Notes: generated from the letters alone by a model not told the origin. Counted from the first letter of the stretch, positions 11,716-55,818 are shown. The stretch is DNA of 55,818 nt from Paracoccaceae bacterium (GCA_050289105.1 JBNKFC010000511.1:1-55818); one strand, 5' to 3'. Translations and numbers: made by a program.

Positions 11716-12680
11716 ACATCCTGATCATCGGCGGCGGAGGGGTCGTCGGCCAGAAACTCGGGCGCGCGCTGGCCGCGCGGGGCGAACTGCGCGGCCAGCC
11801 GATCGACAAGATCACGCTCGCAGACGTCGTCGATCCCGCGGGCATCGAAGGCGCCCCGATGCCCGTCAAGACGATGCGCTGCGACATCGCCAACCCGGCG
11901 TCGGTGGCGGAATGCGTCACGGCCGATGCGGAGGTGATCTACCTCCTCGCCGCCATCGTCTCGGCCCACGCCGAGGAGGATTTCGACGCGGGCATGACGA
12001 TCAACCTCATGGGCACGCTGAACGTCCTTCAGCGGGCGCGAGAGCTCGGCACAAAGCCGATCGTGGTCTTTTCCTCATCGATCGCCGTCTACGGCGGCGA
12101 GGTGCCAGACCCGATCCTCGACCACACCTTCCTCAACCCCCAGACCTCCTACGGCGCCCAGAAGGCCATGGGCGAGCTTCTGATCAACGACTTCAGCCGC
12201 AAGGGCTTCATCGACGGGCGTGGCTTCCGCCTGCCGACGATCTCGGTCCGCCCGGGCAAGCCGAACCGGGCTGCGTCGAGCTTCATGTCATCGATCCTGC
12301 GCGAACCGCTGAACGGGCAAGAGGCGATCTGCCCCGTGGACGAGGATTTCCCGCACTACTACCTCTCTCCGCGCAAATGTGTGGAGAACCTCATCAAGGG
12401 CGCGGAGCTTCAGGCCGAGGATCTGGGCATGAACCGTTGCATGATGATGCCGGGGCGGATGTGGACGATCCGCCAGCTGATCGACGCAATGACCGCCGTG
12501 GCGGGGCCGGAACCCGCAAAGCTCATCCGCTGGGAGGCGCAGCCGGAGATTCAGCGTATCGTGAAAGGCTGGCGCTTCGACATGCGCCCGGAAAAGTCGC
12601 TCAAGCTCGGGCTGACCGCGGACGAGAGCTTCGAGGACAACATCCGCTACTACCTCGAAGACGACAAACCGACGGCCTGA
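11712..12680 (+). CDS. denD: D-erythronate dehydrogenase (extended SDR)
   Basis: LAAIVS..AE.DFD.G, SYGAQK, RLPTISVRPGKPNRAASSF.S.ILREPL.GQEA; the otnKCI genes are in the window. Confidence 0.8.
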   Translation: MNILIIGGGGVVGQKLGRALAARGELRGQPIDKITLADVVDPAGIEGAPMPVKTMRCDIANPASVAECVTADAEVIYLLAAIVSAHAEEDFDAGMTINLMGTLNVLQRARELGTKPIVVFSSSIAVYGGEVPDPILDHTFLNPQTSYGAQKAMGELLINDFSRKGFIDGRGFRLPTISVRPGKPNRAASSFMSSILREPLNGQEAICPVDEDFPHYYLSPRKCVENLIKGAELQAEDLGMNRCMMMPGRMWTIRQLIDAMTAVAGPEPAKLIRWEAQPEIQRIVKGWRFDMRPEKSLKLGLTADESFEDNIRYYLEDDKPTA

Positions 12681-37698: not shown

Positions 37699-39634
<1,936 letters not shown>

Positions 39635-39638
<4 letters not shown>

Positions 39639-39922
39639 CCCGCGAGAATCACGAAAATCGGGCGGAGATGCAGGACGCGATACGGCGCCGGCAGTCTCGC
39701 CGCGAAGCGTGGGAGAAAGAAGGCGAGCGCCCCCTTTGGAAGAACCTCTCGATGGTCGGGGCACTTGGCTGGCTGGTCGTGGTCCCTACGCTGATCGGGG
39801 TCTTTCTCGGGCGCTGGCTGGACGGACGACTGGGCACGGGCGTGACCTTCAGCGGCGCGCTGACCTTTGTGGGGGCCTGCCTTGGTTTCTACCTGGCTTG
39901 GAAAAGGATGAACGAAGAATGA
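39635..39922 (+). CDS. atpQ: N-ATPase AtpQ (AtpI/AtpZ family)
   Basis: G.LGW.VVVP.L.G.FLGRWLD motif; operon position. Confidence 0.85.
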
Positions 39923-40179
39923 CACTGGCATCCGCTTTGCCGTGGTTCGGAGCCGGTCTGGCGCTCGGCGCGGTATACTTGTTTCTCATCGGTCGTTCTG
40001 TGGCGGCGATCTCGGATGGCAGGGCTTGGCGCGCCGCTGGCCCGCTCGTGTTGCGCCTGGCGGTCGCCAGCGCCGCGTTCCTGGTCGCGGCGCGGCATGG
40101 AGCCTTTCCTCCGCTCCTGATGCTTTGCGGTTTCGTCGTGATGCGAACCATCGCGCTGCGCCGGATCAGGGAGGGGTAA
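39919..40179 (+). CDS. atpR: N-ATPase AtpR subunit
   Basis: 86-aa hydrophobic protein with membrane Arg residues (LR, MR); ATGA coupling; diagnostic position. Confidence 0.8.
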   Translation: MTLASALPWFGAGLALGAVYLFLIGRSVAAISDGRAWRAAGPLVLRLAVASAAFLVAARHGAFPPLLMLCGFVVMRTIALRRIREG

Positions 40180-40183
40180 GCCG

Positions 40184-40852
40184 ATGGACGCGAGCCCCCT
40201 CTCCCTGGATATCCTGTTTCACATCGGCCCCGTCCCGATCAGCCGTGCGGTTATGACGACATGGGTAATCATGGCGGCACTTGCGGCTTTCCTGACGATG
40301 GCACTTCGTCAGCCGGCGCTGGACCCCGGCCCGATCCAGGCGGCCCTGGAGATCGTCGTAGTGACGATCGCGTCGCAGCTTCGTGAAATCCTTGGGCGCG
40401 ATCCTTGGCCCTTTCTGCCACTTCTCGGCTCGCTCTTCATCTTTCTCGTGCTGGCAAACCTCGCGGCAGTATTGCCCGGAGCGTCGCCGCCGACCGGACA
40501 TATCGAGACCCCCGCGGCACTGGCCCTGATCGTCTTTCTGTCGGTTCACATCTATGGCGTCCGGGCGCGCGGCGGCCGCAAGTACCTGCGTCACTACCTG
40601 GAGCCCAATCCGTTCCTGCTCCCACTGAACGTATTGTCGGAACTCACGCGGACTTTCTCGCTGATGGTCCGGCTTTTCGGCAACATGATGAGCCACGAAT
40701 TCGTCATCGCAATCGTCGTTTTCTTGGCCGGGCTGCTCGTGCCGATCCCCTTCCTTCTGCTCGGAATCCTGATCGGTATCATACAGGCCTACATCTTCAC
40801 AGTTCTTGCAACCGTCTACATCGCCGCGGCCGTGGGCGCCGTCGAGGCATGA
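40184..40852 (+). CDS. atpB: N-ATPase a subunit
   Basis: RTFSLMVRLFGNM and IQAYIF motifs. Confidence 0.95.
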   Translation: MDASPLSLDILFHIGPVPISRAVMTTWVIMAALAAFLTMALRQPALDPGPIQAALEIVVVTIASQLREILGRDPWPFLPLLGSLFIFLVLANLAAVLPGASPPTGHIETPAALALIVFLSVHIYGVRARGGRKYLRHYLEPNPFLLPLNVLSELTRTFSLMVRLFGNMMSHEFVIAIVVFLAGLLVPIPFLLLGILIGIIQAYIFTVLATVYIAAAVGAVEA

Positions 40853-40868
40853 GAAAGGAGGATACGAC

Positions 40869-41117
40869 ATGGAGAATCTCGTCGAAGTCGTGAGTATCAT
40901 AGGGGCGATCGTGGCCGTTTCCTTCGGGGCGTTCATGCCCGCATACAGCGAAGGCCGTGCGATCGCTGCTGCAATGGAGGCGATAGCCCGGCAACCCGAA
41001 GCTGCGGGCACCCTCTCGCGGACGCTCTTCGTGGGGCTTGCGATGATCGAAACGATGGCGATCTACTGCCTCGTGATCGCGCTGCTCCTACTCTACGCCA
41101 ACCCTTTCACGGGCTGA
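40869..41117 (+). CDS. atpE: N-ATPase c subunit
   Basis: ARQPE loop; PAYSEG and IETMAIY; AGGAGG RBS. Confidence 0.95.
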   Translation: MENLVEVVSIIGAIVAVSFGAFMPAYSEGRAIAAAMEAIARQPEAAGTLSRTLFVGLAMIETMAIYCLVIALLLLYANPFTG

Positions 41118-41124
41118 TTTCGAG

Positions 41125-41862
41125 ATGCAGATCGACTGGTGGACACTCGGGCTTCAGACGATCAACTTCCTGGTGGTCGTCTGGCTGTTGAGCCGGTTCC
41201 TGTACCAGCCGATCCGACAGGTTATCGAACAGCGCGAAGCAGCCGACCGTGCGGCTAAGGAAGCGGCAGAGGACAAAGTCCGCGCTGCGGACGAGGCGCG
41301 GAAGGCATTCGAAGCGAAGCGAGACCAGCTTGCCGAAGAGCAACGGGGAGAAGAGGCGAGACTTCACGCGGAAATGGAGAAAGAGCGCCAGGCGATGCTC
41401 GCGACCGCGGAGAAGAAAGCCAGCGATCTCGTCGCAGAGGCGAAGCTCCGAATCGATCGGGAGCGCACACAGGCGCTGGAACATCTCGACCAGCAGATTG
41501 CGGAACTGGCGAGCGACCTGGCACGAACCGCGCTGAGCGAAATTCCCACTGCAGGCGAAGCCCTGTTGCAGCATGTGACGGCGCATCTCGACGTACGGCC
41601 CGAAAGCGATCTGACGGAACTGCGCAAAGACCTTGAACGCGATGGCAACGGCCTTTCGGTCGTGACTGCCGCGCCCCTCCCCGACGAAGAGCAGGCCCAC
41701 TGGAGAGATGCCATGGCCAAGCATTTCAACGGCATCGACGTCAGGTTTGACCACGACCCCGCGCTTCTGGGCGGCGCTGAGCTGCGGTTTCCCCATGCCG
41801 TGCTGAGCTTCTCGGTCGCGGATCGGTTGAAGCGTTCGGCGCAAGAACTGAAGGCAGTCTAG
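41125..41862 (+). CDS. atpF: N-ATPase b subunit with delta-like C-terminal extension
   Basis: IDWWT..LQ.INF...L.RFLYQP, coiled coil, C-terminal DPALLGG.EL; no separate atpH in the operon. Confidence 0.9.
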   Translation: MQIDWWTLGLQTINFLVVVWLLSRFLYQPIRQVIEQREAADRAAKEAAEDKVRAADEARKAFEAKRDQLAEEQRGEEARLHAEMEKERQAMLATAEKKASDLVAEAKLRIDRERTQALEHLDQQIAELASDLARTALSEIPTAGEALLQHVTAHLDVRPESDLTELRKDLERDGNGLSVVTAAPLPDEEQAHWRDAMAKHFNGIDVRFDHDPALLGGAELRFPHAVLSFSVADRLKRSAQELKAV

Positions 41863-41863
41863 C

Positions 41864-43399
41864 ATGGCGTTGGAAGGGGACGCGAAGGATTGGATCGAGC
41901 GGGCCAGAAAGCGGCTCGGGGAAACAAGCCAAAAGCCGGAACTGCGCCGCATTGGGCGTGTCGAATTGATCGGCGATGGCGTCGCACGCGTCGCAGGTCT
42001 TCCGCACACGAAACTGGATGAGCTTCTTCGCTTCCAGGACGGAACGCTCGGCCTGGCCATGACTATCGATGAGGCGGCAATCGGTTGCGTATTGCTGTCT
42101 TCGGGCGAAGGTATCACGGCGGGAAGCGAGGTTTACGGCACGGGCGAGGTGGCGCGCGTGCCCGTCGGAGATGGCCTGCTGGGTCGGGTCATCTCACCCA
42201 TAGGGGAAACGCTCGACGAGGGCCCGCCCCTCAAGGCCCAGCGTCTCGACCCGGTCGAACGGCCCGCACCTGGGATCGTCGACCGCGACCTCGTGACGGA
42301 ACCCTTGCTGACCGGGTTGACGGTGATCGACAGCATGATCCCACTGGGTCGCGGGCAACGCCAACTGATTATCGGCGACCGCAAGACAGGTAAGACCACG
42401 ATTGCAGTCGACACGATCATCAACCAGCGCGACTCCGATGTCGTATGCATCTATGCCGCCATCGGACAGAAGGCCTCGACCGTCTCTCGGGTCATCAAGG
42501 CAGCACAGACGCATGGAGCCGCCGATCGTTGTATTTTCGTCGTTGCCTCTGCCGACGCGGCGCCGGGCGCTCAATGGATCGCGCCCTATGCCGCATGCAC
42601 GATTGCCGAATATTTCAGGGACAAAGGGCAGCATGCGCTTCTCATTCTCGACGATCTGACCAAGCATGCCATCGTCTATCGACAGCTCTCGCTGATCCTG
42701 CGCAACCCTCCCGGGCGCGAGGCGTATCCGGGCGACGTCTTTTATCTGCATGCCCGGCTCCTCGAACGTGCGGCCAAGTTATCAGGCGAAAACGGCGGCG
42801 GTTCGTTGACCGCCCTTCCGATTGCCGAAACGCAAGCGGGCAATCTGACGGCGTATATCCCGACGAACCTGATCTCGATCACCGATGGTCAGATCTACCT
42901 GGAACCGAAGCTGTTCTACGAGGGTCAGAAGCCGGCGGTAAATGTCGGAATGAGCGTCAGCCGCGTGGGCGGTGCGACACAGGCAAGCGCGATCAAGGCG
43001 CTCGCGGATAGATTAAAGCTCGACTACGCGCAGTTCCTGGAACTCGAGGTTTTCACGCGCTTTGGCGCGATGATGGACGAACGCACCAAGAAGAAGATCG
43101 AACACGGACGGCGGCTTCGCGCGACCCTGAAGCAGGAGGAATATTCGCCCGTTCCGCTTGCGATCCAGGTCGGGCTGCTTCTGGGCGTAGCGGAGGGCCT
43201 TTTGGACGATCTGCCGCTCTCGGCTATGCCTGCGTTCCGCGAGGCTCTGGCAGAACGGCTGCCGAAGGAGCGCCCACGCGCGGTTTCTGAAATCAACGAA
43301 ACGAACCAGCTTTCGGACGAATCCCGCGCCGCGCTTCTGGAAATCGTGAAAGCCTGCGCGGCGGATCTCGCACCGACCACGGAGGAGAGCGAGACCTGA
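41864..43399 (+). CDS. atpA: N-ATPase alpha subunit
   Basis: GDRKTGKT, PPGREAYPGDVFYLH and TNLISITDGQ motifs. Confidence 0.96.
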   Translation: MALEGDAKDWIERARKRLGETSQKPELRRIGRVELIGDGVARVAGLPHTKLDELLRFQDGTLGLAMTIDEAAIGCVLLSSGEGITAGSEVYGTGEVARVPVGDGLLGRVISPIGETLDEGPPLKAQRLDPVERPAPGIVDRDLVTEPLLTGLTVIDSMIPLGRGQRQLIIGDRKTGKTTIAVDTIINQRDSDVVCIYAAIGQKASTVSRVIKAAQTHGAADRCIFVVASADAAPGAQWIAPYAACTIAEYFRDKGQHALLILDDLTKHAIVYRQLSLILRNPPGREAYPGDVFYLHARLLERAAKLSGENGGGSLTALPIAETQAGNLTAYIPTNLISITDGQIYLEPKLFYEGQKPAVNVGMSVSRVGGATQASAIKALADRLKLDYAQFLELEVFTRFGAMMDERTKKKIEHGRRLRATLKQEEYSPVPLAIQVGLLLGVAEGLLDDLPLSAMPAFREALAERLPKERPRAVSEINETNQLSDESRAALLEIVKACAADLAPTTEESET

Positions 43400-44227
43400 A
43401 TGGAAGACCTAAGCCGCATCAAGTCCCGGCTGGAGAGCCTTAACGAACTCGGAGAACTCGTCGGTGCGCTGCGCTCGATGGCCGCCTCGCGGACGCGTGA
43501 GGCGCAGGAGGCTTTCGCCGGGACGCGCGCCTACCGGGGAGTGGTCGAGCGTTCCATTGCGGAGGTGTCGCTCCTTGTGCCGGAGCGTGCGAAAGATGCG
43601 CGCCGGAACGGATTGGCTGGGCGCGTGCTGATCGTCATCTGCTCGGAGAACGGCTTCGTCGGGCTGTTCAACTCGCGCCTGATCGAACGCGCCATACAAC
43701 TCCGACAACCGGACGAGGAACTGGTCATCGTCGGGCGCCGCGGCCAGAACACCGCTGTCGAACGGGGCGTCGCGAGTGCCCTGTCATTCCCGATGGCCTC
43801 GCGGGTGCAGGGGATCACGACGCTCGCGCGCCGGATCGCCGCACATCTCTCCGGCGCGGCAGAAGTGCGTGTCGTCTTTGCGCGTCACATGCCTGGTGCC
43901 GCCTTTGAGATCGCGGACTCTCAGGTCTTGCCGGTGGGAGAGATGAGCACTGGCACGCAACTCACGCCGCCGGTCATACACCTTCAGCCGGATGAACTGA
44001 TGGCGCGTCTCGCCACCGAATATCTCTTTGCTGAGCTGGCGCATGCTCTGATGGAGAGCCTCGCCAGCGAGAATGCCGCACGAATGCAGGCCATGGACTC
44101 CGCCTCGCGAAACATCGACGAAAGAACCGACTCCCTGCGCCGCGACGAGCGCGTGGCGCGTCAGGAGAAGACGACAACCGAGATGCTGGACGTCGTAGTC
44201 GGCGCGGAAGCCGTTGAACACGAATAG
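43400..44227 (+). CDS. atpG: N-ATPase gamma subunit
   Basis: SENGFVG.FN, SENAARM.AM..A..N and RQEKTTTE motifs. Confidence 0.93.
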   Translation: MEDLSRIKSRLESLNELGELVGALRSMAASRTREAQEAFAGTRAYRGVVERSIAEVSLLVPERAKDARRNGLAGRVLIVICSENGFVGLFNSRLIERAIQLRQPDEELVIVGRRGQNTAVERGVASALSFPMASRVQGITTLARRIAAHLSGAAEVRVVFARHMPGAAFEIADSQVLPVGEMSTGTQLTPPVIHLQPDELMARLATEYLFAELAHALMESLASENAARMQAMDSASRNIDERTDSLRRDERVARQEKTTTEMLDVVVGAEAVEHE

Positions 44228-46747: not shown

Positions 46748-47120
46748 AGCGTGGTTCCGCGTCAAAGGGATTGTGGTTTCAAAAGATTTTCGGCCTTCGT
46801 TTCTGAGTTTGCGTAAGCGCTCGTGGGCAGGGGCTTACGTTTCAGGTCAGGTCTCATGGACAGGCGGCGCGCCGGATATCTCGCAACTCTGCTCAGCCGG
46901 CGCTGATGCCCCGATCCCCGTTGAGCGGAGTCCCTGGTTCAGTGGCTGAACTGATTGTCTGTCGTCAGACGATTTGGGAAGGGAATTCCCAATCGGGCAT
47001 GCCGATCGCAGCGCGGTTTCTGGATTGGTTAGCGTTGAGTTGAAGTGATTGCGGGGGGCTTATTGGCCTTGACCGAAAACACGCGCAATTCGATTGAACA
47101 AACTTAACATTTCCACCTTT

Positions 47121-47250
47121 AAGGGCGGGTAGCGGTCATTCGCTGCAATCTCTAACCAAGCTGGGAGCATGACTGGAAGCAGACGTTCGCCGCACTGCCG
47201 CTAGATCCTGTCGAACACTCAAGGCGCGTGAAGGTCCACTCTGCGGACGG
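47121..47250. repeat. Degenerate inter-module repeat cluster 1
   Basis: (+) GGGCGGGTAGCGGTCATTCGCTGCA 47123-47147; (+) GGAAGCAGACGTTCGCCGCA 47175-47194; (-) AGTGGACCTTCAC 47228-47240. Confidence 0.6.
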
Positions 47251-47297
47251 AGCGTGTGCCAGGACAGTTGGCTCCTGCCCGCCTCATTAAACGTCGG

Positions 47298-48182
47298 TCA
47301 AGGGAACAGGCGCTCGAGGAAACTCCGAACGACGCGTAGGAAGGCGGGCTCATCTTCGACAAAGGAAAGATGCGCCACCTCCGGGATCTCGACGACAATG
47401 GCGTCTTTCATCATCGCGGCGAAGGCGCGCAACGTGCCGGGCCGGGCTTCATCATGTTCACCACACACGAAGAGCACGGGCGCCGACACCTCTCCGATCC
47501 TGTCCAGACCATCGTAGTCCCGGATGACGCCACGCGCGGTGAACTCGCTCGGCCCCCAGATGAAGTTGTAAAGCGCGTCGTTGAACAACTCGCCGGACCT
47601 TGCGTGATGCGGGGGCCTGTCTCCCTTCCGCCGGACATGTCGCTTCATGAACACTTCGTTTGCGTGCTGATAGCCGGGGTTGTCGAAGTCGTTGTCGGCT
47701 TCGCATTCCCGGATGAGCCGCTGCAAGTACTCGGGCAGCCCGGCAATCAACTCCTGGGCGCCCCTGCTCCACCGTTCGGCGCTGAGACAGGGGCTGACGA
47801 GGATAAGCCCCGCCGTGCGATCGGGATATTTGAGGGCGTATTCGTAGGCCAGGAGGCCGCCCCAGGAATGCCCGACCGGAATAAGCCTCTCGAATCCCAG
47901 TGCCGCGCGCACCCGCTCGATCTCATCGACGTAGTAATCTATGGTCCAGTTCGACCGGTCGCCCGGCCGGTCGGAGTTCCCGGTGTCGAGCTGGTCGTAG
48001 AGGACGACGGGTTGCAGGTCATCGAGCGCCGCAAGCGCCATCAGATAATGATGCGACATTCCGGGGCCGCCAGTAATGCCCAGAACGGCCGCGCGCGCCG
48101 GTTGTAGCCCGTTCTGCCGATACCAGGTGCGCCCGCCGGGTCCGTCGACGTAACCCGCAATTTCCGGATCGATCCACATCAT
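47298..48182 (-). CDS. Proline iminopeptidase/L-amino acid amidase-family alpha/beta hydrolase
   Basis: GGPG, YDQL..G.S, GHSWGG nucleophile, WGPSEF, GEHDE. ATG 48182 follows GGAAGGGGG. Confidence 0.88.
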   Translation of the reverse strand: MMWIDPEIAGYVDGPGGRTWYRQNGLQPARAAVLGITGGPGMSHHYLMALAALDDLQPVVLYDQLDTGNSDRPGDRSNWTIDYYVDEIERVRAALGFERLIPVGHSWGGLLAYEYALKYPDRTAGLILVSPCLSAERWSRGAQELIAGLPEYLQRLIRECEADNDFDNPGYQHANEVFMKRHVRRKGDRPPHHARSGELFNDALYNFIWGPSEFTARGVIRDYDGLDRIGEVSAPVLFVCGEHDEARPGTLRAFAAMMKDAIVVEIPEVAHLSFVEDEPAFLRVVRSFLERLFP

Positions 48183-48340
48183 TGCGTCCCCCCTTCCACG
48201 CGCGCCAAGCCGCGCAAAGTCACGTGATACCCGCATTCGAGGCCCGTCAATACGATCGACATGCCATCCGGCATGGAGCCGATTCTCCCGCTTCTCCGGC
48301 ACCCGCCCACCAGCCGGTACGGCAGTGCAAGATTGACGAC

Positions 48341-48410
48341 CGGCAAAGTCCGCTTTGGGGGTCGGAGCTGCCGTTCGCCGTGCACGGCATCAATGGCATT
48401 TCCGGGCCGT
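48341..48410. repeat. Degenerate inter-module repeat cluster 2 (bulged hairpin)
   Basis: (-) CCCAAAGCGGACTTTGCCG 48341-48359; (+) GGAGCTGCCGTTCGCCG 48364-48380 pairs with 48385-48403 around the palindrome GCCGTGCACGGC. Confidence 0.6.
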
Positions 48411-48570
48411 TCCCGGCATTGCTGCATTCGGTCGCGTTCCCGGGCTCCGTCTTCGTTGTAGTGCCTGCGGCATCCGAATATGTTGATCAGGCAGCGATGC
48501 TCAACCATTGGACCCGGCTTGATTAGACCACATCGGACATACACGTTTCTGCGCGAAGCAGGGCTTTGAC

Positions 48571-49236
48571 ATGCGGAGCGGCCTTACCCGAAGGAGACTG
48601 GCGATCCTGGCGGTTCTTTTGCTTGTCTTGGCCGGATACCGAACCGTCTTCAGTGCATCCGACCTGATGCCCGTTTATATCATTTTTACTGAGGAAGCAG
48701 GCTTCTCAGAAGCGAGTAAGACCGAGATCCTTACCCTCCTTAGACTGGATGCGCGTGATCGCCACGTGAAAGTGATGCGAGAGGCGGATGCAGAGATCGT
48801 GACCGATCTTGATCGTATCAGGCAACGCATAGACACGGTCGGCGATAACGTGGACAACGGCTTGCTTTTCGTTCCCCTCTCGGCGCCGACAGCAGACAGC
48901 AAGAAACTGCTCCGCGCATCGTTAGAGGAGGCGTATGGCGGCACGGGCTGTCGCTTGGCGGAGGCTCTCAGGCAGACCGTTCCCGTGGTTTCTGCCGAGC
49001 TCTATTCACCAGATGCGGTCATATCGGCGCATGATGCGTGCACGCAGGCGTGCCCAGAGCCGCGAGTTTCGGAACCGGTGCACGACCAGATACATGATGA
49101 TGTGGTGTATTTCGATGATAATTTCAGAGGAATGGGGTTGCTGGTCCGCTCCGTCGACCGCGACGTGTTTGCGCGCTTCGGCGATGCCTTGGATGACTTG
49201 GCACCGCGCATGGCGGAAACAGCTTGCGAAGCCTGA
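48571..49236 (+). CDS. Hypothetical exported or membrane-anchored protein
   Basis: 221-aa ORF with a basic-then-hydrophobic N-terminus; no recognised family. Confidence 0.6.
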   Translation: MRSGLTRRRLAILAVLLLVLAGYRTVFSASDLMPVYIIFTEEAGFSEASKTEILTLLRLDARDRHVKVMREADAEIVTDLDRIRQRIDTVGDNVDNGLLFVPLSAPTADSKKLLRASLEEAYGGTGCRLAEALRQTVPVVSAELYSPDAVISAHDACTQACPEPRVSEPVHDQIHDDVVYFDDNFRGMGLLVRSVDRDVFARFGDALDDLAPRMAETACEA

Positions 49237-49269
49237 AAACCGACTGACGGCTGTCTGTAGCGGGAGGTT

Positions 49270-49330
49270 CGGGAAAGCTGCTCTGCAGGCCCGTGCCGTC
49301 GGCGAATGACCGGTAAGGGCGGGATTGCAC
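49270..49330. repeat. Degenerate inter-module repeat cluster 3
   Basis: (-) ACCGGTCATTCGCCG 49300-49314 shares CGGTCATTCGC exactly with 47133-47143. It is followed by AAGGGCGGG, as at 47121. Confidence 0.55.
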
Positions 49331-49369
49331 TGCACACTGGGGCAGGCTCATCTGCCCGTCCGGATTGCA

Positions 49370-49852
49370 TCAAAGAGCGAGTTCGTCCAGGACCGAACCT
49401 TTTGTCGGCGGATGCAACACGATCTTCAGTGCTCGGGCGGGTGTCAGTGGAACTCTTCTGTTGATCGGAAGGAACAGCAGGCTCCGCGCCAACGGGCAAT
49501 AACCGAAAACGACGAGCGCGGTGGTTCCGGTCGCCTGTATCCAGAACATCGGCGTCAGGTGCGGAACGAAACTGGCAACCATCCAAACCAAATAGACCAC
49601 GCGAACCTGAGTCGGAAAATCGAGAAGGCTGCGCGTCCGGGCCAAGTAAATCACCGTTTGCGCGACCACCAACATCAATGCTGCAAGTCGAGATGTCCCA
49701 CTGCCGGCCAGTCCCCCGAGCAACAGGACGTCGATTGCGAGCCACGCCCACCAGGCAAAGGGACGCCGCCACAAATTGCGTGATTGGGTGAGGGCAAAAT
49801 CGGACAGAGCGCATAGGTGTACTGTTTGGGCCATCGGTTTTCTCCACGGCAT
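49370..49852 (-). CDS. Hypothetical membrane protein
   Basis: Several hydrophobic helices, FGYCPLAR motif. Start uncertain. Confidence 0.6.
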   Translation of the reverse strand: MPWRKPMAQTVHLCALSDFALTQSRNLWRRPFAWWAWLAIDVLLLGGLAGSGTSRLAALMLVVAQTVIYLARTRSLLDFPTQVRVVYLVWMVASFVPHLTPMFWIQATGTTALVVFGYCPLARSLLFLPINRRVPLTPARALKIVLHPPTKGSVLDELAL

Positions 49853-50088
49853 CAAATGGTGTTAGTGCTTGTGAGAAATGATGCCCGAGCGTATCGCGAG
49901 GATTTCAGGCGCTGAAGTCTTGGGTTTCAAATGTTACCGGGCGCCCCCGACAACCGATCATATTTTTGCTTCAGGCAGCGCGGGCCGAGTCATCGAACAG
50001 CACCACGATGACCGTCTTCTGCGCCCGCTCAGCAGTCTTCCATCACCTAAAATTGCTGCGCTCGTGTGCCAGTGGCAGCATTGGGGAA

Positions 50089-50183
50089 GCTGCACCGCGG
50101 CGCTTCCGCATGTGACGAAGGTCTGTTTCGGGCCGGTCGCTGCATTTGGATTGGAAGGGCGGAAAGCAGAAGTTCTCTGCAAT
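50089..50183. repeat. Degenerate inter-module repeat cluster 4
   Basis: (-) GGCCCGAAACAGACCTTCGTCACA 50111-50134; (+) 50155-50183 matches 47121-47149 at 22/29; 50089-50138 is a direct repeat of 53854-53904. Confidence 0.65.
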
Positions 50184-50419
50184 TGCGAAGCAGTGGGCGA
50201 GAATGCAGTAACGCGGGCATCTACCGAGGATGCCAATGCGCCAGTACAAACCAATTGGACCCGGCGTTCGCACGCCGGTTTCGTTTTCACCCAATTGGTC
50301 CAATTCGTGGGATGCCAGCCGGAGCCGACTGTAGAAGTAGTATGCATGCCTGCTTCGTCGAAGCGGCAAATGGCGCACACGGCGCGCGCTTTGGCCTATT
50401 GCCTGTCGATCTGCGCGCA

Positions 50420-51097
50420 TCAAGCGGGATCGTAGATGTAGCCGATGCCACGCACCGTGCGGATGACCTCCGGTTTTTGCGGGTTGCGCTCAATCTTTTT
50501 GCGGATGCGTGAGATACGGATGTCGATAGACCGGTCGAACGGGTCCCATGACCTGTCATGCGCGCCTTCAAGGATCTGGTCGCGGTTCAGGACCCGGCCG
50601 CGATTCTCGGCGAAGTGCTTGAGCAGTCGGAACTCCATCGCCGTCAGCGGAACTTCACGCCCTTCGGAGTCGACCAGCTTCGCTGCGTCAGCATGAAGCC
50701 AAGTTTTGCCGAAGGGATAGATCCGCGACTGCTTGGATGGGCTCTGCTGCGTCTGTTCCGCCGTATCCTTGCCCGGCGCCGGCGCGAACAAATCAACGAG
50801 CATGTTCACCAGCGAGACCTCCGGCCCTTTGCTGACATCTTCCGCCACGGTTCGGGCAGCGTGCCAATGTGGTCGGACTTCGGCGCGTGCACCCGTCATT
50901 GCGGTCACTTTCCCCCGGTTCAGGACGTTTGCCACAGCAAGTTGCCTCTCGAAGGACGTGAGGTTGGCGTGCTTGGCGACCACGTTCATGAGAGCGATGA
51001 ACGAACCGACGTCAATCTGAACAACCGGCGACGAACCGCCTTTGGGTAGTTCATATGCCAGGGAGGCGGCGGACATTTTGCGTTCCTTTTCGTTCAT
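50420..51097 (-). CDS. OmpR/PhoB-type winged-helix regulator with a non-receiver N-terminus
   Basis: C-terminal LTAMEFRLL..F....GRVLNRDQIL...DRSIDIRISRIRKKIE...IRTVRGIGY; no acidic REC motifs in the N-terminus. Confidence 0.82.
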   Translation of the reverse strand: MNEKERKMSAASLAYELPKGGSSPVVQIDVGSFIALMNVVAKHANLTSFERQLAVANVLNRGKVTAMTGARAEVRPHWHAARTVAEDVSKGPEVSLVNMLVDLFAPAPGKDTAEQTQQSPSKQSRIYPFGKTWLHADAAKLVDSEGREVPLTAMEFRLLKHFAENRGRVLNRDQILEGAHDRSWDPFDRSIDIRISRIRKKIERNPQKPEVIRTVRGIGYIYDPA

Positions 51098-51136
51098 GCA
51101 GAAGCGCGCGTACCGTGCTTCCTGCCTTTTCGTTGT

Positions 51137-51535
51137 TTAAGATCTCAGACCATGGAGAGCGGCTTTGCGCAGAAAGACGTCGCTCCGACCGCCGGACAAC
51201 CCGATGTCCTTGAGAATGTGGGTGCTCAGATAGTCCAACTCGCGATCGGCCATCCGCCGCATGCCCGCCTGTTTGCGCACCTCTCTTTTCGTCCTGATAG
51301 CTGTCACGGCCGCGTCGATGATACCGATGCATTCGGCGACGAAGCCGGCGCGCTGGCGGGAAATGGCAGGCGTATCCGGCGATGCGTCGAAAAATCTGGC
51401 CGACGCGCCGCCCCGGAGGACAACCAGCGGCCCTCGGGTCGTGTTTGCAGGCATGTTCGCCGCCTTGGGCGGGAATGCGGCCGGGGAGCGGCTGTCTTTC
51501 CGGTGAGATGCGGCGCTCGCATTAGTGTTGTGCAT
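51137..51535 (-). CDS. DUF1127 (YjiS-like) domain protein, long form
   Basis: C-terminal RELDYLSTHILKDIGLS signature preceded by an Arg-rich helix; AGGA RBS. Confidence 0.7.
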   Translation of the reverse strand: MHNTNASAASHRKDSRSPAAFPPKAANMPANTTRGPLVVLRGGASARFFDASPDTPAISRQRAGFVAECIGIIDAAVTAIRTKREVRKQAGMRRMADRELDYLSTHILKDIGLSGGRSDVFLRKAALHGLRS

Positions 51536-51933
51536 GTCGTTTCCTATCGTTCGGTCATGTAATAAGCGTCACCGCGTGTGAGAGCGGTCCCGGCCAGAAG
51601 TGGCCGATCGGTCATCAAGAGGGTGGCTGGTGACGCGGCCGACCATGATCGGCATGAGCAAAAACTCTCGCGCCACCGCACTGCCAAAGTGCTGAAAAAC
51701 GCACCAGCCCACGGCGTCAAAGACAATACAATCTCTTTGAGCTAAAAAGCTCTTTTGTGCTACATTCTTGGTCGAAACTTCTTTGGTTACTTCAGTCGCC
51801 ACGCTCCGGTCAGACTGCCAGTTTGGAGATTGAGTCCTTGTGGCCGCCGTCTGATCTGAACGTGCGGATGTTTTTATTGATCGACCCGTCAACATCAAAC
51901 GAATTGTTCGTATGCATTCGATAAGGAACGCTA

Positions 51934-52806
51934 ATGGACACAGAACTGTATCGCACGTTCCTTGCCATCGCCGATTCCGGCGGCTTCACTTCCGCCGCAC
52001 AAATCGTCGGTCGCACTCAGTCCGCCGTGAGCCAGCAGATCAAGCGGCTTGAGGACATGCTTGGCCAGCCCCTTTTCGACCGGGCAGCGACTCCGGTCAC
52101 GCTCACGGAATACGGCAAGTCACTCTTGCGCCCCGCGCGCCAGATCGTGGAAACGCACGACGAGGCCATGGCGATGTTTCGACGGACTGCGTTCGAGGGG
52201 ATCGTCGTCGTTGGCGTTGCGGATGCCTACGTGAACCGGATCTTGAAAGATGTCATGACCGAATTCGCGAAGCTATTGCCGCAGGGCACAATCAGTATCG
52301 TGATCGACGATTCCCTAGGCCTGTCGCGGCGCATCGCTAACGGATCTGTGGACCTCGCCTTCGTGACGGAGGGGAACTGTCCCACGCGCGGCCCGGTCGC
52401 GTTCACCGACCGTCTGGTCTTGGTTGGGCCATCCGAGGTTAATCTTAGCAAGGTCGATCCCCTGCCCGTCGCGGTCTGGGATGAGCGCAACCAGGACGAG
52501 TTGCCCCTTGTTGCCGCTCTGGAAGCAATGAACAGGCGCTATCGCCCGGTCTGCGTATGCCGGAGCGTCTTCGCCCAGCACCAGGCCGTTACTGCCAATC
52601 TTTGCGTCGCCGTCCTGGTCGAGGGCAGCATGGTCGCAGGCGAACGAGCGTACCTAGAGGAGGACGGGTTTCCGGTGATGAAACACCTGAATATTCGGCT
52701 GGAGAGATCCTACGCAAAGCGCTCGCCTGTCGTCGAGCAACTGGAAAAGCACTATCTTAATTTCTTCGCAGGGACGAGTGCGGATCGGACGAGTCAGCCG
52801 GTGTAG
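51934..52806 (+). CDS. LysR-family regulator
   Basis: GGFTSAA..VGRTQSAVSQQIKRLE HTH; AAGGA RBS. Confidence 0.93.
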   Translation: MDTELYRTFLAIADSGGFTSAAQIVGRTQSAVSQQIKRLEDMLGQPLFDRAATPVTLTEYGKSLLRPARQIVETHDEAMAMFRRTAFEGIVVVGVADAYVNRILKDVMTEFAKLLPQGTISIVIDDSLGLSRRIANGSVDLAFVTEGNCPTRGPVAFTDRLVLVGPSEVNLSKVDPLPVAVWDERNQDELPLVAALEAMNRRYRPVCVCRSVFAQHQAVTANLCVAVLVEGSMVAGERAYLEEDGFPVMKHLNIRLERSYAKRSPVVEQLEKHYLNFFAGTSADRTSQPV

Positions 52807-53028
52807 TCCGAGGTGGCCCAGCGTGCGGCCGCGAACGGAGAACCTCTACCAGAACCAAGCAGATCTGAGATGCACAGTTTGAACTCACGTGGATTAATTG
52901 TAGTTTTCGTTGTTCACCCTGACATAGGATTTGGCGATTGACCGGTTCGTCCGCATCGCGGCACTGCGCGTCCCGCGTGTTATCATTGGCGTTAGCCAAG
53001 AACGGACAAACGGCGAGGAGGGGCGGCG

Positions 53029-53664
53029 ATGTACTAACCAACCGACGTGGTCAGCAGCGAAGAAGAAATTCGTAGCGTGATACCTGACCAGTTCTCTTCC
53101 CAAACTGGAAAGATAATTGACCACATCGACAAACATATTCGGCTTTGGATCGAACGCTCCCCTTTTCTGACCATAGCCACCTACAACGCTTCAGGCCAGG
53201 TCGACATTTCTCCAAAGGGCGATCCGGCCGGCTTCGTGAAAGTGTTGGATGACAAGACCCTTGCCATTCCGGATCGACCCGGAAATCATCGCTTCGACAC
53301 CTTTCTCAACATTCTGGATACAGGCCGCATCGCGGTCATGTTCATGGTTCCAAATCGACGCGAAGTCGTGCGGGTGAACGGCCGAGCACAGGTTGTACGC
53401 GACCGCTCGTTGCGAGAGAGCATGTCAATTCAGGGACGGGTACCAGACTTTGCCGTTGTGGTCCAAGTGGAGGAAGCGTTCTATCACTGCGGGAGGGCTG
53501 TTCTGCGGTCTCGACTTTGGGAGCCTGAAAAGGCAGTTTCCACAGACGGCCTTCCGACTTATGCGGAAGCTGTTTTCGAGCAGGCGAAGATCACCGACCG
53601 GAGCCTGGCCGAGTTGGACGAGGGGTTCCAAGGCAACGAGAAACATCGACTGTATGATGAATGA
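53029..53664 (+). pseudogene. Pyridoxamine 5'-phosphate oxidase-like FMN-binding protein (MSMEG_1061 type) with an early nonsense codon
   Basis: DISPKGDPAGFV, PDRPGN.R.D and HCGRA..RS.LW motifs. RBS GAGGAG precedes ATG-TAC-TAA in frame with the 53047 GTG ORF. Confidence 0.7.
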
Positions 53665-53779
53665 CGAGGTGGATGGAATTCGTCGACCTGACCAAACCCC
53701 ATAGGTTTCTGTAACCGACGAAAACGACCTTTTCTAACTGGCGTCCCGCCACGCGGTCATTGTTCCAGTTGCGGTTAAC

Positions 53780-53904
53780 GACAGCAACGTTTCGCAATGC
53801 GGACACTCCTCGGGCTGAAATGCTGCGAGATCGACCAAAGTCCGGTCCGGCGGGCTGCGCCGCGGCGCCAAAGGAGTCGCGGCAACGTCGGCTCAGGGCC
53901 GTTC
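53780..53904. repeat. Degenerate inter-module repeat cluster 5, abutting the integrase 3' end
   Basis: (-) GGCCCTGAGCCGACGTTGCCGCG 53878-53900; GCTGCGCCGCGGCGC 53854-53868 matches 50089-50103 at 14/15. Confidence 0.65.
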
Positions 53905-53920
53905 AATCTAGTCCGCAACG

Positions 53921-54950
53921 CTACTTGCGAATGCTAACGACATTTGCATTGCAATCAGATCGAGCCGCGACGGTTGCCCATGCCTCCATCAACGCGCGCC
54001 GCCTATCGAAAAGGTCAGACCGCGCATACGCCGCCTCTGCCTTGTCTTTGATCCCATGCGCCAGCGCGGCTTCAATCACCTCACGCGGGAAGCCTGTTGT
54101 TTCCCCGGCCCAATCGCGGAAGGTGGAGCGAAAACCATGGACTGCTATTTCGGTGCGCTCCATGCGGCGGAGAACTGCAGTCATACTCATGTCGGAAATA
54201 GGTTTTCCAGGTTTGGCCTCGCTTTCAAAGACAAGCTTCTCGTTGGCGTCCTCTTGGCCGCGCGTGCCCAGCAAGGCGAGGGCGAATTCGCTCAAAGGAA
54301 CGCGATGTTCCTTTCCCGCCTTCATCCGCTCCGCTGGAATAGTCCAGACACGCGCGTCAAGATCAACCTCGCCCCAGGTCGTGCCGCGCGTCTCACCAGA
54401 CCGCGCCGCCGCCAGGATGGTGAAGCCCAACGCCCGAGCAGCAACGCCATCACGCGCGACCAGATCGGTCATGAAATCGGCAATCTTTGCGTGGGGAAGC
54501 GCCGGGTGATGCTTGACTGCACGAACCTTCTTGGGCTTCGGCAACAAGTGGTCCAGATGACCGCGCCAGCGCGCCGGGTTTTCATTAGTGCGGATGCCCA
54601 GCGCCGAGGCATAGTCGATCACCGCTTCGATCCGTTGACGCACCGGGCTGGCCGTCTCGGGCTTCTGTGACCAGATCGGGGTGAGTGTCGAGATCACGTC
54701 TGCCGTTTCGATCTTGGCAACCTGGACCGCGCCGATCTTCGGGAAGACGTATGCCTCAAGCGTCGCAGTCCATTGCGCCGCGTGCTTGGCGTTCTTCCAG
54801 CTGGGGCGCTTGCTCTCGATCAACTCCAACGCGGCTTCGCGGAAGGTCTTGGGCTTCGCTTGCTGTTTCTTCGTGATGGGGTCCCGACCCTCAGCAATCA
54901 ACCGTCGCGCCTCCGCTCCGCGTTCGCGCGCCATCGCAAGGCTCACCGCT
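53921..54950 (-). mobile_element. P4-type tyrosine integrase, N-terminally truncated
   Basis: WKNAKH..QW, AARSGE (R), MKAGKEH (K), HGFR (HxxR), LAH and AYAR (Y) are all present. Homology starts only at the end of the arm-binding domain (AVSLAMARE); no convincing RBS. Confidence 0.85.
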
Positions 54951-55189: not shown

Positions 55190-55818
55190 TCACGGACCGC
55201 CCCATGCCCCCGTCAGCAGCCGCCGCGTCACCTTCTCGACGGCCAGGTCACGCGCAATGAGACCGGCGACCCATTCGCAGCTTCCGGCATTGAAGACTGC
55301 GCCCCGGCCGCGGCGGTATTCGGCCATCATCCCGTTGCCCCGCGCGAACCTTGCGAGCGCATCTGCCGACTGGTCCCCAAGCAAGGTCGCGGCCAGATGC
55401 TCGGCATCCGCGCTGCCAATGAACTCATCGGCGTCGGCGGGGCTGTCCGAATGGGCAAGGGTCGTGGCCGGTGACAGGCCGACGATGTCGAGGCTTCCGT
55501 CAAGGCGGGCGTCACCGGCGGGGAAGGGCAGGCCGCGGGTCATGACGTAGTCAATACCGTCGACCTCGTAGCCGAATATCCGCGCCTCCGCGCCCAGAAC
55601 ATCGCCGTATCCGAGTCCCGTGCCCTGCATGGCCCAGTGGTCGGGCCGGTAGATGGTGAAGCCGCCCGATCCGTGCGCCGCGCAGCGGCTCCAACCGGCA
55701 TAGACCCCCGCCGATCCGGTCAGACCCATGGTCAGGGTGGCGGGGCGGCGGACAAGGGGGTGATCCCAGTAACTGGTCAGACGCGTCCGATCCCCTGTCA
55801 TCGCCGGGTCTTCGTCCT
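55190..55818 (-). CDS. N,N-dimethylformamidase large (beta) subunit-family protein, 3' part
   Basis: HWAM.GTGL..GD..G, GYEVDG and G.VFNAGSCEW motifs; open to the window edge. Confidence 0.78.
   Translation of the reverse strand, partial: DEDPAMTGDRTRLTSYWDHPLVRRPATLTMGLTGSAGVYAGWSRCAAHGSGGFTIYRPDHWAMQGTGLGYGDVLGAEARIFGYEVDGIDYVMTRGLPFPAGDARLDGSLDIVGLSPATTLAHSDSPADADEFIGSADAEHLAATLLGDQSADALARFARGNGMMAEYRRGRGAVFNAGSCEWVAGLIARDLAVEKVTRRLLTGAWGGP

What the first reader, a model, noticed from the sequence alone, without database searches (positions are those of the whole stretch)
47121..54950. Cassette-like array: unrelated gene modules separated by one degenerate hairpin-forming repeat, ending at a tyrosine integrase
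Seen: five intergenic clusters (47.12-47.25, 48.34-48.41, 49.27-49.33, 50.09-50.18, 53.78-53.90 kb) carry copies, in both orientations, of a unit with rough core AGC-N-G-N-C-N-TT(C)GC. Pairwise evidence: 47121-47149 vs 50155-50183 match 22/29, and CGGTCATTCGC is exact at 47133 (+) and about 49302 (-). The clusters fall at the boundaries between unrelated cargo: aminopeptidase / exported hypothetical / membrane protein / wHTH-DUF1127-LysR-PNPOx / integrase. I noticed no such clusters in the 1-37 kb catabolic block (by eye). Known: integrons build gene arrays at degenerate bulged-hairpin attC sites but are essentially unreported in alphaproteobacteria, and these repeats show no canonical attC ends. 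Inference: these may be recombination or insertion sites of an undescribed gene-capture system, or a REP/MITE-like family that seeds island growth. A link to the adjacent integrase is positional only.
Basis: partly seen in the sequence, partly recalled or inferred. Interest (0 to 1): 0.82.

Follow-up and report, generated by a model that had tools for sequence, protein, structure and literature searches.

The report
Gene modules swapped at six-base spacers
The repeats are real, and related genomes and metagenomes show neighbouring gene blocks joined to different partners at the six-base centre of these repeats; they are likely the recombination sites of a tiny, widespread tyrosine recombinase (not the integrase next door), which would give a bacterial class said to lack integrons its own gene-shuffling system.

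Summary
Observation confirmed, interpretation refined. The repeat is not a hairpin or attC. It is a 12-bp arm + 6/7-bp spacer + inverted 12-bp arm site, often present as half-sites and in 46-bp tandem units. A model trained on 80 other-genome loci gives 12 hits in the intergenic spacers of 46.7-53.9 kb, against 0.17 in shuffles. Modules are exchanged at the spacer. A 94%-identical aminopeptidase module in another genus starts and ends inside spacers. Metagenome contigs show both reciprocal junctions sharing exactly GGGCCG 50130-50135 (11 of 16 loose ends at spacer edges). The adjacent integrase is a 5'-truncated P4-type island integrase: 1 of 29 homologues has a site beside it. A ~210-aa catalytic-domain-only tyrosine recombinase does in 26 of 30. 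It is missing from this 88%-complete assembly but abuts the same module in G282. The enzyme link is inferred, not assayed. No IntI, attC or RAYT was found. Nine literature searches found no description. This scan found the same system before on other DNA, and those notes gave me the recombinase lead.

The parts
47045..47085 (+). Relic of the 3' end of a large-serine-recombinase element; left border of the array
   Evidence: 83% over 41 nt to the LSR end on own contig C75; a gapped local alignment continues through the first two sites
47123..47140 (+). Half-site: spacer GGGCGG 47123-47128 + right arm
   Evidence: 26.2 bits, other-genome model
47170..47187 (+). Half-site: degenerate spacer + right arm, 47 bp after the first
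   Evidence: 18.9 bits
47231..47260 (+). Site: left arm, spacer GCGGAC 47243-47248, worn right arm; left end of the aminopeptidase module
   Evidence: 20.2 bits; G282 homology starts at 47245; contigs of X6 and X7 join here at 47245
47298..48182 (-). Cargo 1: proline iminopeptidase-family hydrolase
   Evidence: TIGR01250 over cut-off; 94% copy in G282
48345..48375 (+). Full site: 12-bp arm, 7-bp spacer 48357-48363, 12-bp arm; right end of the aminopeptidase module
   Evidence: 14.2 and 25.5 bits; left arm identical in G282, spacer and right arm differ
48392..48420 (+). Site: left arm, spacer GGGCCG 48404-48409, worn right arm
   Evidence: by eye and window-seeded matrix, not scored by the other-genome model; alternative junction behind 48409 in X1, X5; G154 homology starts at 48411
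48571..49236 (+). Cargo 2: 221-aa ORFan with N-terminal hydrophobic stretch
   Evidence: no Pfam, NCBIfam or PHROG match; 85% partial copy in G154
49305..49322 (+). Half-site: left arm + spacer GGGCGG 49317-49322 (a weaker half-site by eye at 49268-49285)
   Evidence: 12.1 bits
49370..49855 (-). Cargo 3: 161-aa hydrophobic ORFan
   Evidence: no family match; no relative in JGI metagenomes
50071..50088 (+). Half-site: left arm + spacer 50083-50088
   Evidence: 15.2 bits
50118..50135 (+). Half-site: left arm + spacer GGGCCG 50130-50135; mapped exchange point
   Evidence: 12.5 bits; both reciprocal junctions seen: behind 50135 in X1, X5, X7, X13; before 50130 in X5, X7 and X1, X6
50157..50174 (+). 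Half-site: spacer GGGCGG 50157-50162 + right arm; left end of the regulator module
   Evidence: 20.7 bits; own contig C36 and runs X1, X5 join other DNA at 50156; G163 homology starts at 50173
50420..52806 (.). Cargo 4: wHTH (50420-51097 -), DUF1127-like (51137-51535 -), LysR (51934-52806 +)
   Evidence: Pfam; 87% block in G163 and G160
52937..52954 (-).
   Evidence: 10.6 bits; G165:C50 homology ends at 52956 and continues into a repeat-like stretch
53047..53664 (+). Cargo 5: PPOX-type flavoprotein
   Evidence: TIGR04025 over cut-off
53744..53807 (-). Half-site (spacer 53744-53749) and full site (53777-53807), opposite polarity
   Evidence: 13.3 and 9.5 bits
53837..53901 (+). Two left-arm half-sites, spacers 53849-53854 (by eye) and GGGCCG 53896-53901
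   Evidence: 10.7 bits for the second; X1 alternative junction behind 53903
53921..54940 (-). P4-type island integrase lacking about the first 55 codons (most of the arm-binding domain); right border, not the cognate enzyme
   Evidence: Phage_int_M; only positions 53-83 of 83 of Arm-DNA-bind_3; PRK09692 below cut-off; DNA homology to full-length relatives stops at 54940

Best explanation
The 47-54 kb region is an array of gene modules joined at short two-arm sites (12-bp arm, 6/7-bp spacer, inverted 12-bp arm), and related genomes and metagenomes show different partners joined at the spacer; the exchange is likely catalysed on double-stranded DNA by a ~210-residue, catalytic-domain-only tyrosine recombinase, which would act here in trans. 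Shown: site geometry, 46-bp tandem empty units, junction variants at spacer edges, and the recombinase gene itself sitting between such sites. Inferred: one protomer binds each arm and cuts at the two edges of the spacer, so strands are swapped across a 6-bp overlap as in dif/lox recombination. Co-oriented sites would give excision or insertion, and opposed sites inversion (the PNPOx module is flanked by opposite-polarity spacers). The many half-sites would be scars of capture at weak secondary targets that share only a GGGCSG-like spacer. Arrays build up at the ends of ordinary islands (LSR relic on the left, P4-type integrase on the right). This array appears to be an orphan, analogous to a CALIN.
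For: Geometry and 46-bp period: 92 neighbour pairs at 46 bp and 29 at 45 bp among 488 hits in 77 loci; only 88 of 488 lie inside long ORFs, which cover 73%. Reciprocal junctions overlapping by exactly 50130-50135, on long near-identical contigs (X13 1235 nt with 3 differences; X7 271 nt with 0) from 3 studies. 11 of 16 loose ends, 5 of 10 places, lie at spacer edges; p about 2e-6. 7 of 13 module ends in relatives lie within 12 nt of a spacer; p about 0.005 against intergenic DNA. 11 of 55 cross-locus ends lie within 25 nt, against 1.9 expected. Mini-recombinase: 26 of 30 loci have a site within 200 nt against a 7% background, many at fixed offsets (+23-25, +70 after the stop). Identity among its flanks falls from 0.95 at the downstream spacer to 0.28 beyond the outer arm. 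Catalytic R61, K89, H158, R161, H184, Y193 are invariant in 19 sequences. All 5 of 5 tested genomes that share window modules encode it (some copies broken), against 54 of 150 in the family. In G282 a broken copy abuts the same aminopeptidase module, and the pair is flanked by a direct repeat of about 20 nt starting at a spacer. The same arms flank its homologue on an E. coli plasmid.
Against: The recombinase is not in this assembly (87.9% complete, 595 contigs), and no activity was assayed. Only 4 of 80 site-bearing loci hold it within about 5 kb, and genome-level co-occurrence is modest (21 of 41 vs 33 of 109, p=0.02, kin not independent). 6 of 13 module ends have no site (48258, 49047, 50392, 52838 twice, 52846). 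The G282 right end was placed at the spacer by hand; BLAST ran on to 48390. One search contains redundant pairs, and 44 of its 55 ends are not near sites. In one search only 5 of 24 listed loose ends (115 unlisted) were at spacers. No excised circle (back-joint between two spacers) was seen in 7 runs laid as contigs. Most window sites are half-sites, with arm complementarity of only 0-7 of 12. X1 may be the source sample. The AlphaFold model is poor (pLDDT 63) and does not show how a protein without a core-binding domain grips the arm.
Confidence: 0.72

Rival explanations
1. The sites are exchanged by a host recombinase such as XerC/XerD, as pdif modules are in Acinetobacter; the mini-recombinase is only a frequent passenger module.
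For: The geometry is dif-like (11+6+11; PMC5357621 passages). XerC- and XerD-like genes are in the assembly while the mini-recombinase is not. 20 of 41 pattern-positive genomes had no mini-recombinase match.
Against: The arms are GC-rich and alike on both sides, and none of the 16 listed sites has the AT-rich XerD arm motif (motif recalled; sites). The same arms flank the mini-recombinase from Rhodobacteraceae to an E. coli plasmid. Sites sit at fixed offsets from its gene.
Confidence: 0.1
2. The repeats are a REP/BIME- or MITE-like selfish family that collects in accessory DNA; modules change by homologous or illegitimate recombination between copies.
For: Mosaic tandem units, an intergenic location and both orientations resemble BIMEs; the 40-bp empty unit has inverted ends.
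Against: No stable hairpins and no Y1/RAYT gene in the assembly. Only 15 two-hit clusters genome-wide, 3 of them here. Reciprocal junctions share only 6 bp, too little for RecA, and fall at spacer edges. Flanking spacers differ, so there is no target duplication. Br-REP1/2 are unrelated.
Confidence: 0.09
3. A neighbouring island enzyme built the array: the P4-type integrase on the right or a large serine recombinase on the left.
For: Sites lie 20 nt behind the integrase stop, and one 80%-identical homologue (L123) has three sites within 300 nt of its 3' end. Sites also follow LSR elements on C75 and in G154.
Against: 1 of 29 P4-type homologues has a site within 200 nt against 26 of 30 for the mini-recombinase (p about 2e-11), and 13 of 29 sit by a tRNA. 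The window copy is 5'-truncated. 0 of 80 site loci match either of two LSR queries. A 6-bp overlap fits tyrosine rather than serine chemistry (established knowledge). A family-wide LSR flank control was not obtained.
Confidence: 0.05
4. The junction variants are assembly chimeras at repeats, and the repeats are inert relics.
For: The window is a MAG contig. Its own 50135/50156 join rests on an 80-nt piece at depth 3.5 with 30 nt on the short side, one under the tool's bridging rule.
Against: The variants overlap by 6 bp, far below the 30-nt overlap the contigs show at branch points. The same junction recurs in 4 runs of 3 studies. The 47245 junction is the same in genome G282 and run X7.
Confidence: 0.04

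Closest known systems
Integrons and CALINs (IntI, attI, attC; PMC4889954, passages)
   Same: Arrays of unrelated cargo between degenerate repeated sites; a tyrosine recombinase with a fixed proximal site; orphan arrays without the enzyme.
   Different: No attC boxes or hairpins and no IntI; 30-bp two-arm sites with exchange in a central spacer; multi-gene modules in either orientation; 46-bp empty units; the recombinase gene is itself a mobile module; found in Alphaproteobacteria, where that paper found no integron, In0 or CALIN in 243 genomes.
pdif (XerC/XerD-dif) modules of Acinetobacter plasmids (PMC9771954, passages)
   Same: Modules bounded by short two-arm sites with a 6-bp centre, exchanged between replicons.
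   Different: Arms are 12 bp, GC-rich and not XerC/XerD-like (motif recalled); about two thirds of neighbours are co-oriented (243 of 366 pairs); tied to a dedicated mobile recombinase; chromosomal islands as well as plasmids.
FimB/FimE-type DNA invertases (NF007371; properties recalled)
   Same: About 200-aa tyrosine recombinase without a core-binding domain.
   Different: 22.8 bits against a 222-bit cut-off; linked to open-ended module arrays, not to one invertible promoter switch.
REP/BIME mosaics, including Br-REP1/2 of Bradyrhizobium (PMC5082802, passages)
   Same: Intergenic tandem mosaics of short inverted motifs.
   Different: Unrelated consensus; not hairpin-stable; confined to accessory DNA at low copy; junctions mapped to the spacer.
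P4-type (arm-binding) island integrases
   Same: The adjacent 53921-54940 gene is one.
   Different: It is truncated and its homologues are not tied to these sites.

Membership tests
Integron / CALIN | Integron integrase IntI in the genome or linked to the sites | tested here: not met
   TIGR02249 not over cut-off in own genome; mini-recombinase 24 bits vs 265
Integron / CALIN | attC with RYYYAAC ... GTTRRRY ends, 55-141 bp | tested here: not met
   regular-expression scan of 46.6-54 kb, both strands, no match; IntegronFinder itself not available
Integron / CALIN | Stable single-strand hairpin | tested here: not met
   1 of 9 folds below z -2
Integron / CALIN | Single-ORF cassettes, all co-oriented | tested here: not met
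   cargo on both strands, one module a divergent three-gene block
pdif modules | Two arms around a 6-bp exchange region | tested here: met
   12+6/7+12 geometry; 6-bp overlap of reciprocal junctions
pdif modules | Arms are XerC and XerD binding sites | tested here: inconclusive
   no AT-rich XerD-like arm in 16 listed sites, but the motif is recalled and the host's own dif was not retrieved
pdif modules | Modules flanked by inversely oriented sites | tested here: not met
   243 of 366 neighbour pairs co-oriented; inverse orientation taken from a reference title
pdif modules | Recombination depends on XerC/XerD | not testable with these tools
   needs mutants
REP/BIME | Hundreds of stable palindromes across core intergenic regions | tested here: not met
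   102 hits >=14 bits and 15 clusters genome-wide; folds
REP/BIME | RAYT (Y1 HUH) gene | tested here: not met
   PF01797 not found in the 88%-complete assembly
REP/BIME | GTAG/CGTC tag at the palindrome foot | tested here: inconclusive
   such a tetramer near 6 of 16 sites; whether at a fixed offset was not checked
MITE | Target-site duplication flanking terminal inverted repeats | tested here: not met
   spacers on the two sides of a unit usually differ (GGGCTC then GCGGAC)
FimB/FimE invertase | About 200-aa recombinase lacking the core-binding domain | tested here: met
   210 aa; PDB matches cover only the catalytic domain of Xer proteins
FimB/FimE invertase | Family score and a single invertible switch | tested here: not met
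   22.8 vs 222 bits; flanks are variable arrays
GInt | ginABCD operon at the island end (PMC5385486) | tested here: not met
   one integrase gene only in the window; a two-recombinase pair on C75 is cut by the contig end and was not classified
P4-type island integrase (adjacent gene) | Arm-binding + core-binding + catalytic domains, tRNA target | tested here: inconclusive
   domains present but arm-binding domain truncated; no tRNA in window; 13 of 29 homologues by a tRNA

The most novel reading that the evidence does not exclude
An undescribed, Proteobacteria-wide gene-capture platform. A 210-aa tyrosine recombinase without a core-binding domain, itself a mobile cassette, captures arbitrary DNA at spacer-like 6-mers and shuffles it between degenerate 30-bp sites. 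It builds arrays on islands and plasmids that stay shufflable in trans. It would be the functional counterpart of integrons in Alphaproteobacteria, and the coexisting junction variants in single samples would reflect ongoing shuffling.
Probability: 0.55. Interest if true: 0.9.

Novelty: categorically new. Interest (0 to 1): 0.8.

Why it matters
The reported absence of integrons, In0 and CALINs from Alphaproteobacteria was called 'extremely puzzling' (PMC4889954). A different cassette system would offer an answer that can be tested with one small gene and two 30-bp sites. The enzyme is common: 54 of 150 family genomes and 334 PLSDB plasmids, including Pantoea, Escherichia, Sinorhizobium and Klebsiella. 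It may therefore shape island and plasmid cargo widely. A 210-aa recombinase tolerant of degenerate arms would also be of mechanistic and tool interest. This window adds reciprocal junctions that pin the exchange to the 6-bp spacer. The working principle (tyrosine recombinase, short sites, modules) is known from integrons and pdif, so a conservative reader would call it a new variant. I file it as new because it fails the tested membership features of each family.

Tried and rejected
Generic repeat finding and a strict perfect-hairpin pattern (7 hits genome-wide vs 1-4 in shuffles, none in the window) missed the family. The window-seeded matrix is circular and was not used as evidence. Rfam: only a chance snoRNA hit, E 0.45. 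No tRNA in the window. The 208-aa recombinase frame on C75 is a contig-end fragment, not the mini-recombinase. JGI metagenome scans: nothing for the 161-aa ORFan, only 32-38% relatives for the aminopeptidase. An order-level DNA search of 401 genomes added no new module copy. The plasmid search with 47.1-50.3 kb gave iminopeptidase gene fragments in the 20 of 118 rows listed. Phage records: 3 distant mini-recombinase matches. IMG/VR: 23 pattern matches, not analysed further. Structure prediction was low-confidence and Foldseek gave only generic Xer/Cre matches. ESM Atlas gave only 'phage integrase' clusters. A family-wide flank control for the large serine recombinase was not obtained. Two papers checked as possible prior descriptions were unrelated (PMC5082802, PMC3832669; passages).


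Full report
1. Observation. The window is contig C511 of a fragmentary assembly (3.72 Mb, 595 contigs, 87.9% complete). GC falls from about 0.65 to 0.58-0.60 over 44-54 kb. I trained the model on those 80 loci. It gives 12 hits >=12 bits (10 distinct arms) in the window's seven intergenic stretches, against 0.17 in shuffles (max 2 of 200) and 0.54 expected per 7 kb. The 1-37 kb block has 4 scattered hits. The family is widespread: 83 matches in 42 of 151 genomes vs 25 in 15 for the reversed control. The clusters are not good hairpins: 1 of 9 folds below z -2.

2. Anatomy. Aligned contexts show a 12-bp arm (about AAAGCNGNCRTT), a 6-bp or 7-bp spacer and an inverted arm, repeated with a 46-bp period (spacer 6 + arm 12 + linker 16 + arm 12). 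In 77 loci there are 488 hits, median 5 per locus. The commonest spacings are 46 (92 pairs) and 45 (29). The commonest spacers are GGGCTC, GCGGAC, GCGGGA, GGGCGG and GGGCCG. 88 of 488 hits fall in long ORFs, which cover 73% of the DNA, and 243 of 366 neighbour pairs are co-oriented. The window has about 16 full or half sites, 12 scored by this model at >=9.5 bits and the rest placed by eye. Those from 47.1 to 50.2 kb mostly share one polarity (the model calls 49317 ambiguously and has one weak opposite hit at 50023); those around the PNPOx gene are reversed.

3. Modules are exchanged at the spacer. Genome G282, of another genus, shares 47245-48390 at 94%. On the left, homology begins inside spacer 47243-47248. 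On the right, the left arm is identical and the spacer and right arm differ. G154 begins at 48411, G163 at 50173, G247 at 47239, and G165:C50 ends at 52956. Own contig C36 repeats 50156-50277 at 99% behind different DNA that leads to a tRNA-Ser. In all, 7 of 13 ends are within 12 nt of a spacer (p about 0.005; one placed by hand). Six are not: 48258, 49047, 50392, 52846 and 52838 twice. Public runs from several studies hold this lineage. Laid as contigs, 11 of 16 loose ends, at 5 of 10 places, fall on spacer edges (p about 2e-6). At 50130-50135 both reciprocal products occur. The left DNA runs through 50135 into a new, arm-like sequence in X1, X5, X7 and X13. The right DNA starts at 50130 behind other left arms in X5 and X7 (also X1 and X6). 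The overlap is exactly the 6-bp spacer, as expected from staggered tyrosine-recombinase cuts (dif mechanism, PMC5357621 passages). X7 joins at 47245 to the same sequence as G282. Limits: X1 may be the source sample. Variants may be different strains rather than one shuffling clone. In the wider lay only 5 of 24 listed loose ends were at spacers, with 115 unlisted. No circle joint was seen. Across all fetched loci, 11 of 55 internal ends of >=85% matches are within 25 nt of a spacer vs 1.9 by chance (max 6 of 300), with some redundant pairs.

4. Which enzyme. The adjacent gene is a P4-type integrase whose homology to full-length relatives stops at 54940, removing most of the arm-binding domain. 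Of 29 homologue loci, 1 has a site within 200 nt and 13 have a tRNA. In a smaller set of 7, one 80%-identical homologue had three sites within 300 nt of its 3' end. Earlier scan notes pointed to a tiny recombinase, and I then found it in my own loci. It is 210 aa, with invariant R61, K89, H158, R161, H184, Y193, and matches only the catalytic domain of Xer proteins. It passes no NCBIfam cut-off. It occurs in 54 of 150 family genomes and 334 plasmids. Of 30 loci, 26 have a site within 200 nt (background 7%), often at +23-25 and +70 after the stop, where the terminator stem ends in the spacer and the DNA beyond the arm is unrelated between genomes. All 5 tested genomes that share window modules encode it, some in broken form. 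In G282 a broken copy directly abuts the aminopeptidase module. On an E. coli plasmid the same arms flank its homologue. Against: it is not in this assembly, only 4 of 80 site loci carry it, and genome-level co-occurrence is weak (p=0.02). So the exchange point is shown and the enzyme is inferred.

5. Mechanism. Best reading (0.72): double-strand site-specific recombination with a 6-bp overlap by the mini-recombinase acting in trans or in the past. It would insert, excise and invert modules; half-sites would be scars of capture at spacer-like secondary targets; 46-bp units would be empty modules. The array sits between two ordinary island ends: an LSR-end relic at 47045-47085 and the P4-type integrase. 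Rivals: host XerCD (0.10), REP/MITE with general recombination (0.09), the neighbouring island enzymes (0.05), assembly artefact (0.04).

6. Comparison with what is known. It works like an integron/CALIN in outcome and like pdif modules in site geometry. It is not an integron (no IntI; no attC ends; no hairpins). It fails the pdif orientation feature, and the arm test is inconclusive. It is not REP/BIME, not Fim-type by score, and not a GInt. Literature: nine full-text searches listed no paper whose title or abstract opening describes it. I saw passages of PMC4889954, PMC9771954, PMC5385486, PMC5357621, PMC5082802 and PMC3832669, and passages plus section 7 of PMC8138268, whose list of simple recombinase subgroups names none like this. 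I opened no supplements, and its datasets may classify the protein. The library lacks most subscription papers, so 'undescribed' means not found in these searches.

7. Verdict. A real feature, and an orphan array of an apparently undescribed module-exchange system that this scan has met before on other DNA (AI notes, not independent support). The specific gain here is the base-level mapping of the exchange point by reciprocal junctions, and the exclusion of the neighbouring integrase. Interest 0.8.

Noticed in passing
window 37741-44227: A second, N-ATPase-like F1Fo operon (beta, epsilon, small membrane ORFs, a, c, b, alpha, gamma order read from translations; gamma confirmed by Pfam), followed by an MBL/beta-CASP gene and a LOG-family gene; related ATPase genes on C60, C267 and C27.
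   Followed up: no
window 47045-47194 vs G000:C75 about 12290-12430: The array's left end resembles the 3' end of a large-serine-recombinase element and its first two sites on own contig C75, where two tandem tyrosine recombinases precede the LSR.
   Followed up: partly
L132:14576-17258 and L133:12996-15689 (G154:C10): A 2.7-kb LSR element is duplicated at 88%; one end is a site spacer and the other, in one copy, is the end of a tRNA-Gln gene.
   Followed up: partly
G000:C36:1-1008: tRNA-Ser(TGA), a recombinase-like fragment, then the 50157 spacer and the start of the regulator module: a second arrangement in the same assembly.
   Followed up: partly
window 49322-49361: Run X7 shows a 40-bp back-joint (tandem repeat with 8-bp microhomology) beginning at the last base of a spacer.
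   Followed up: no
window 52838-52846: G163/G160 homology ends at 52838 and G165:C50 homology starts at 52846, with no recognisable spacer; X4 has 2 extra bases here. Unexplained junction.
   Followed up: partly
L313:7938-8627 (NZ_OM105940.1): The mini-recombinase homologue on an E. coli IncY plasmid is flanked by the same arms with other spacers (GTGCCA, GAGCGA); further sites separate neighbouring genes.
   Followed up: partly
window 55427-55818: DMFA2_C-domain gene end, 94% identical to the end of contig C174.
   Followed up: no
L290-L312: 23 IMG/VR contigs carry the site pattern; not examined.
   Followed up: no
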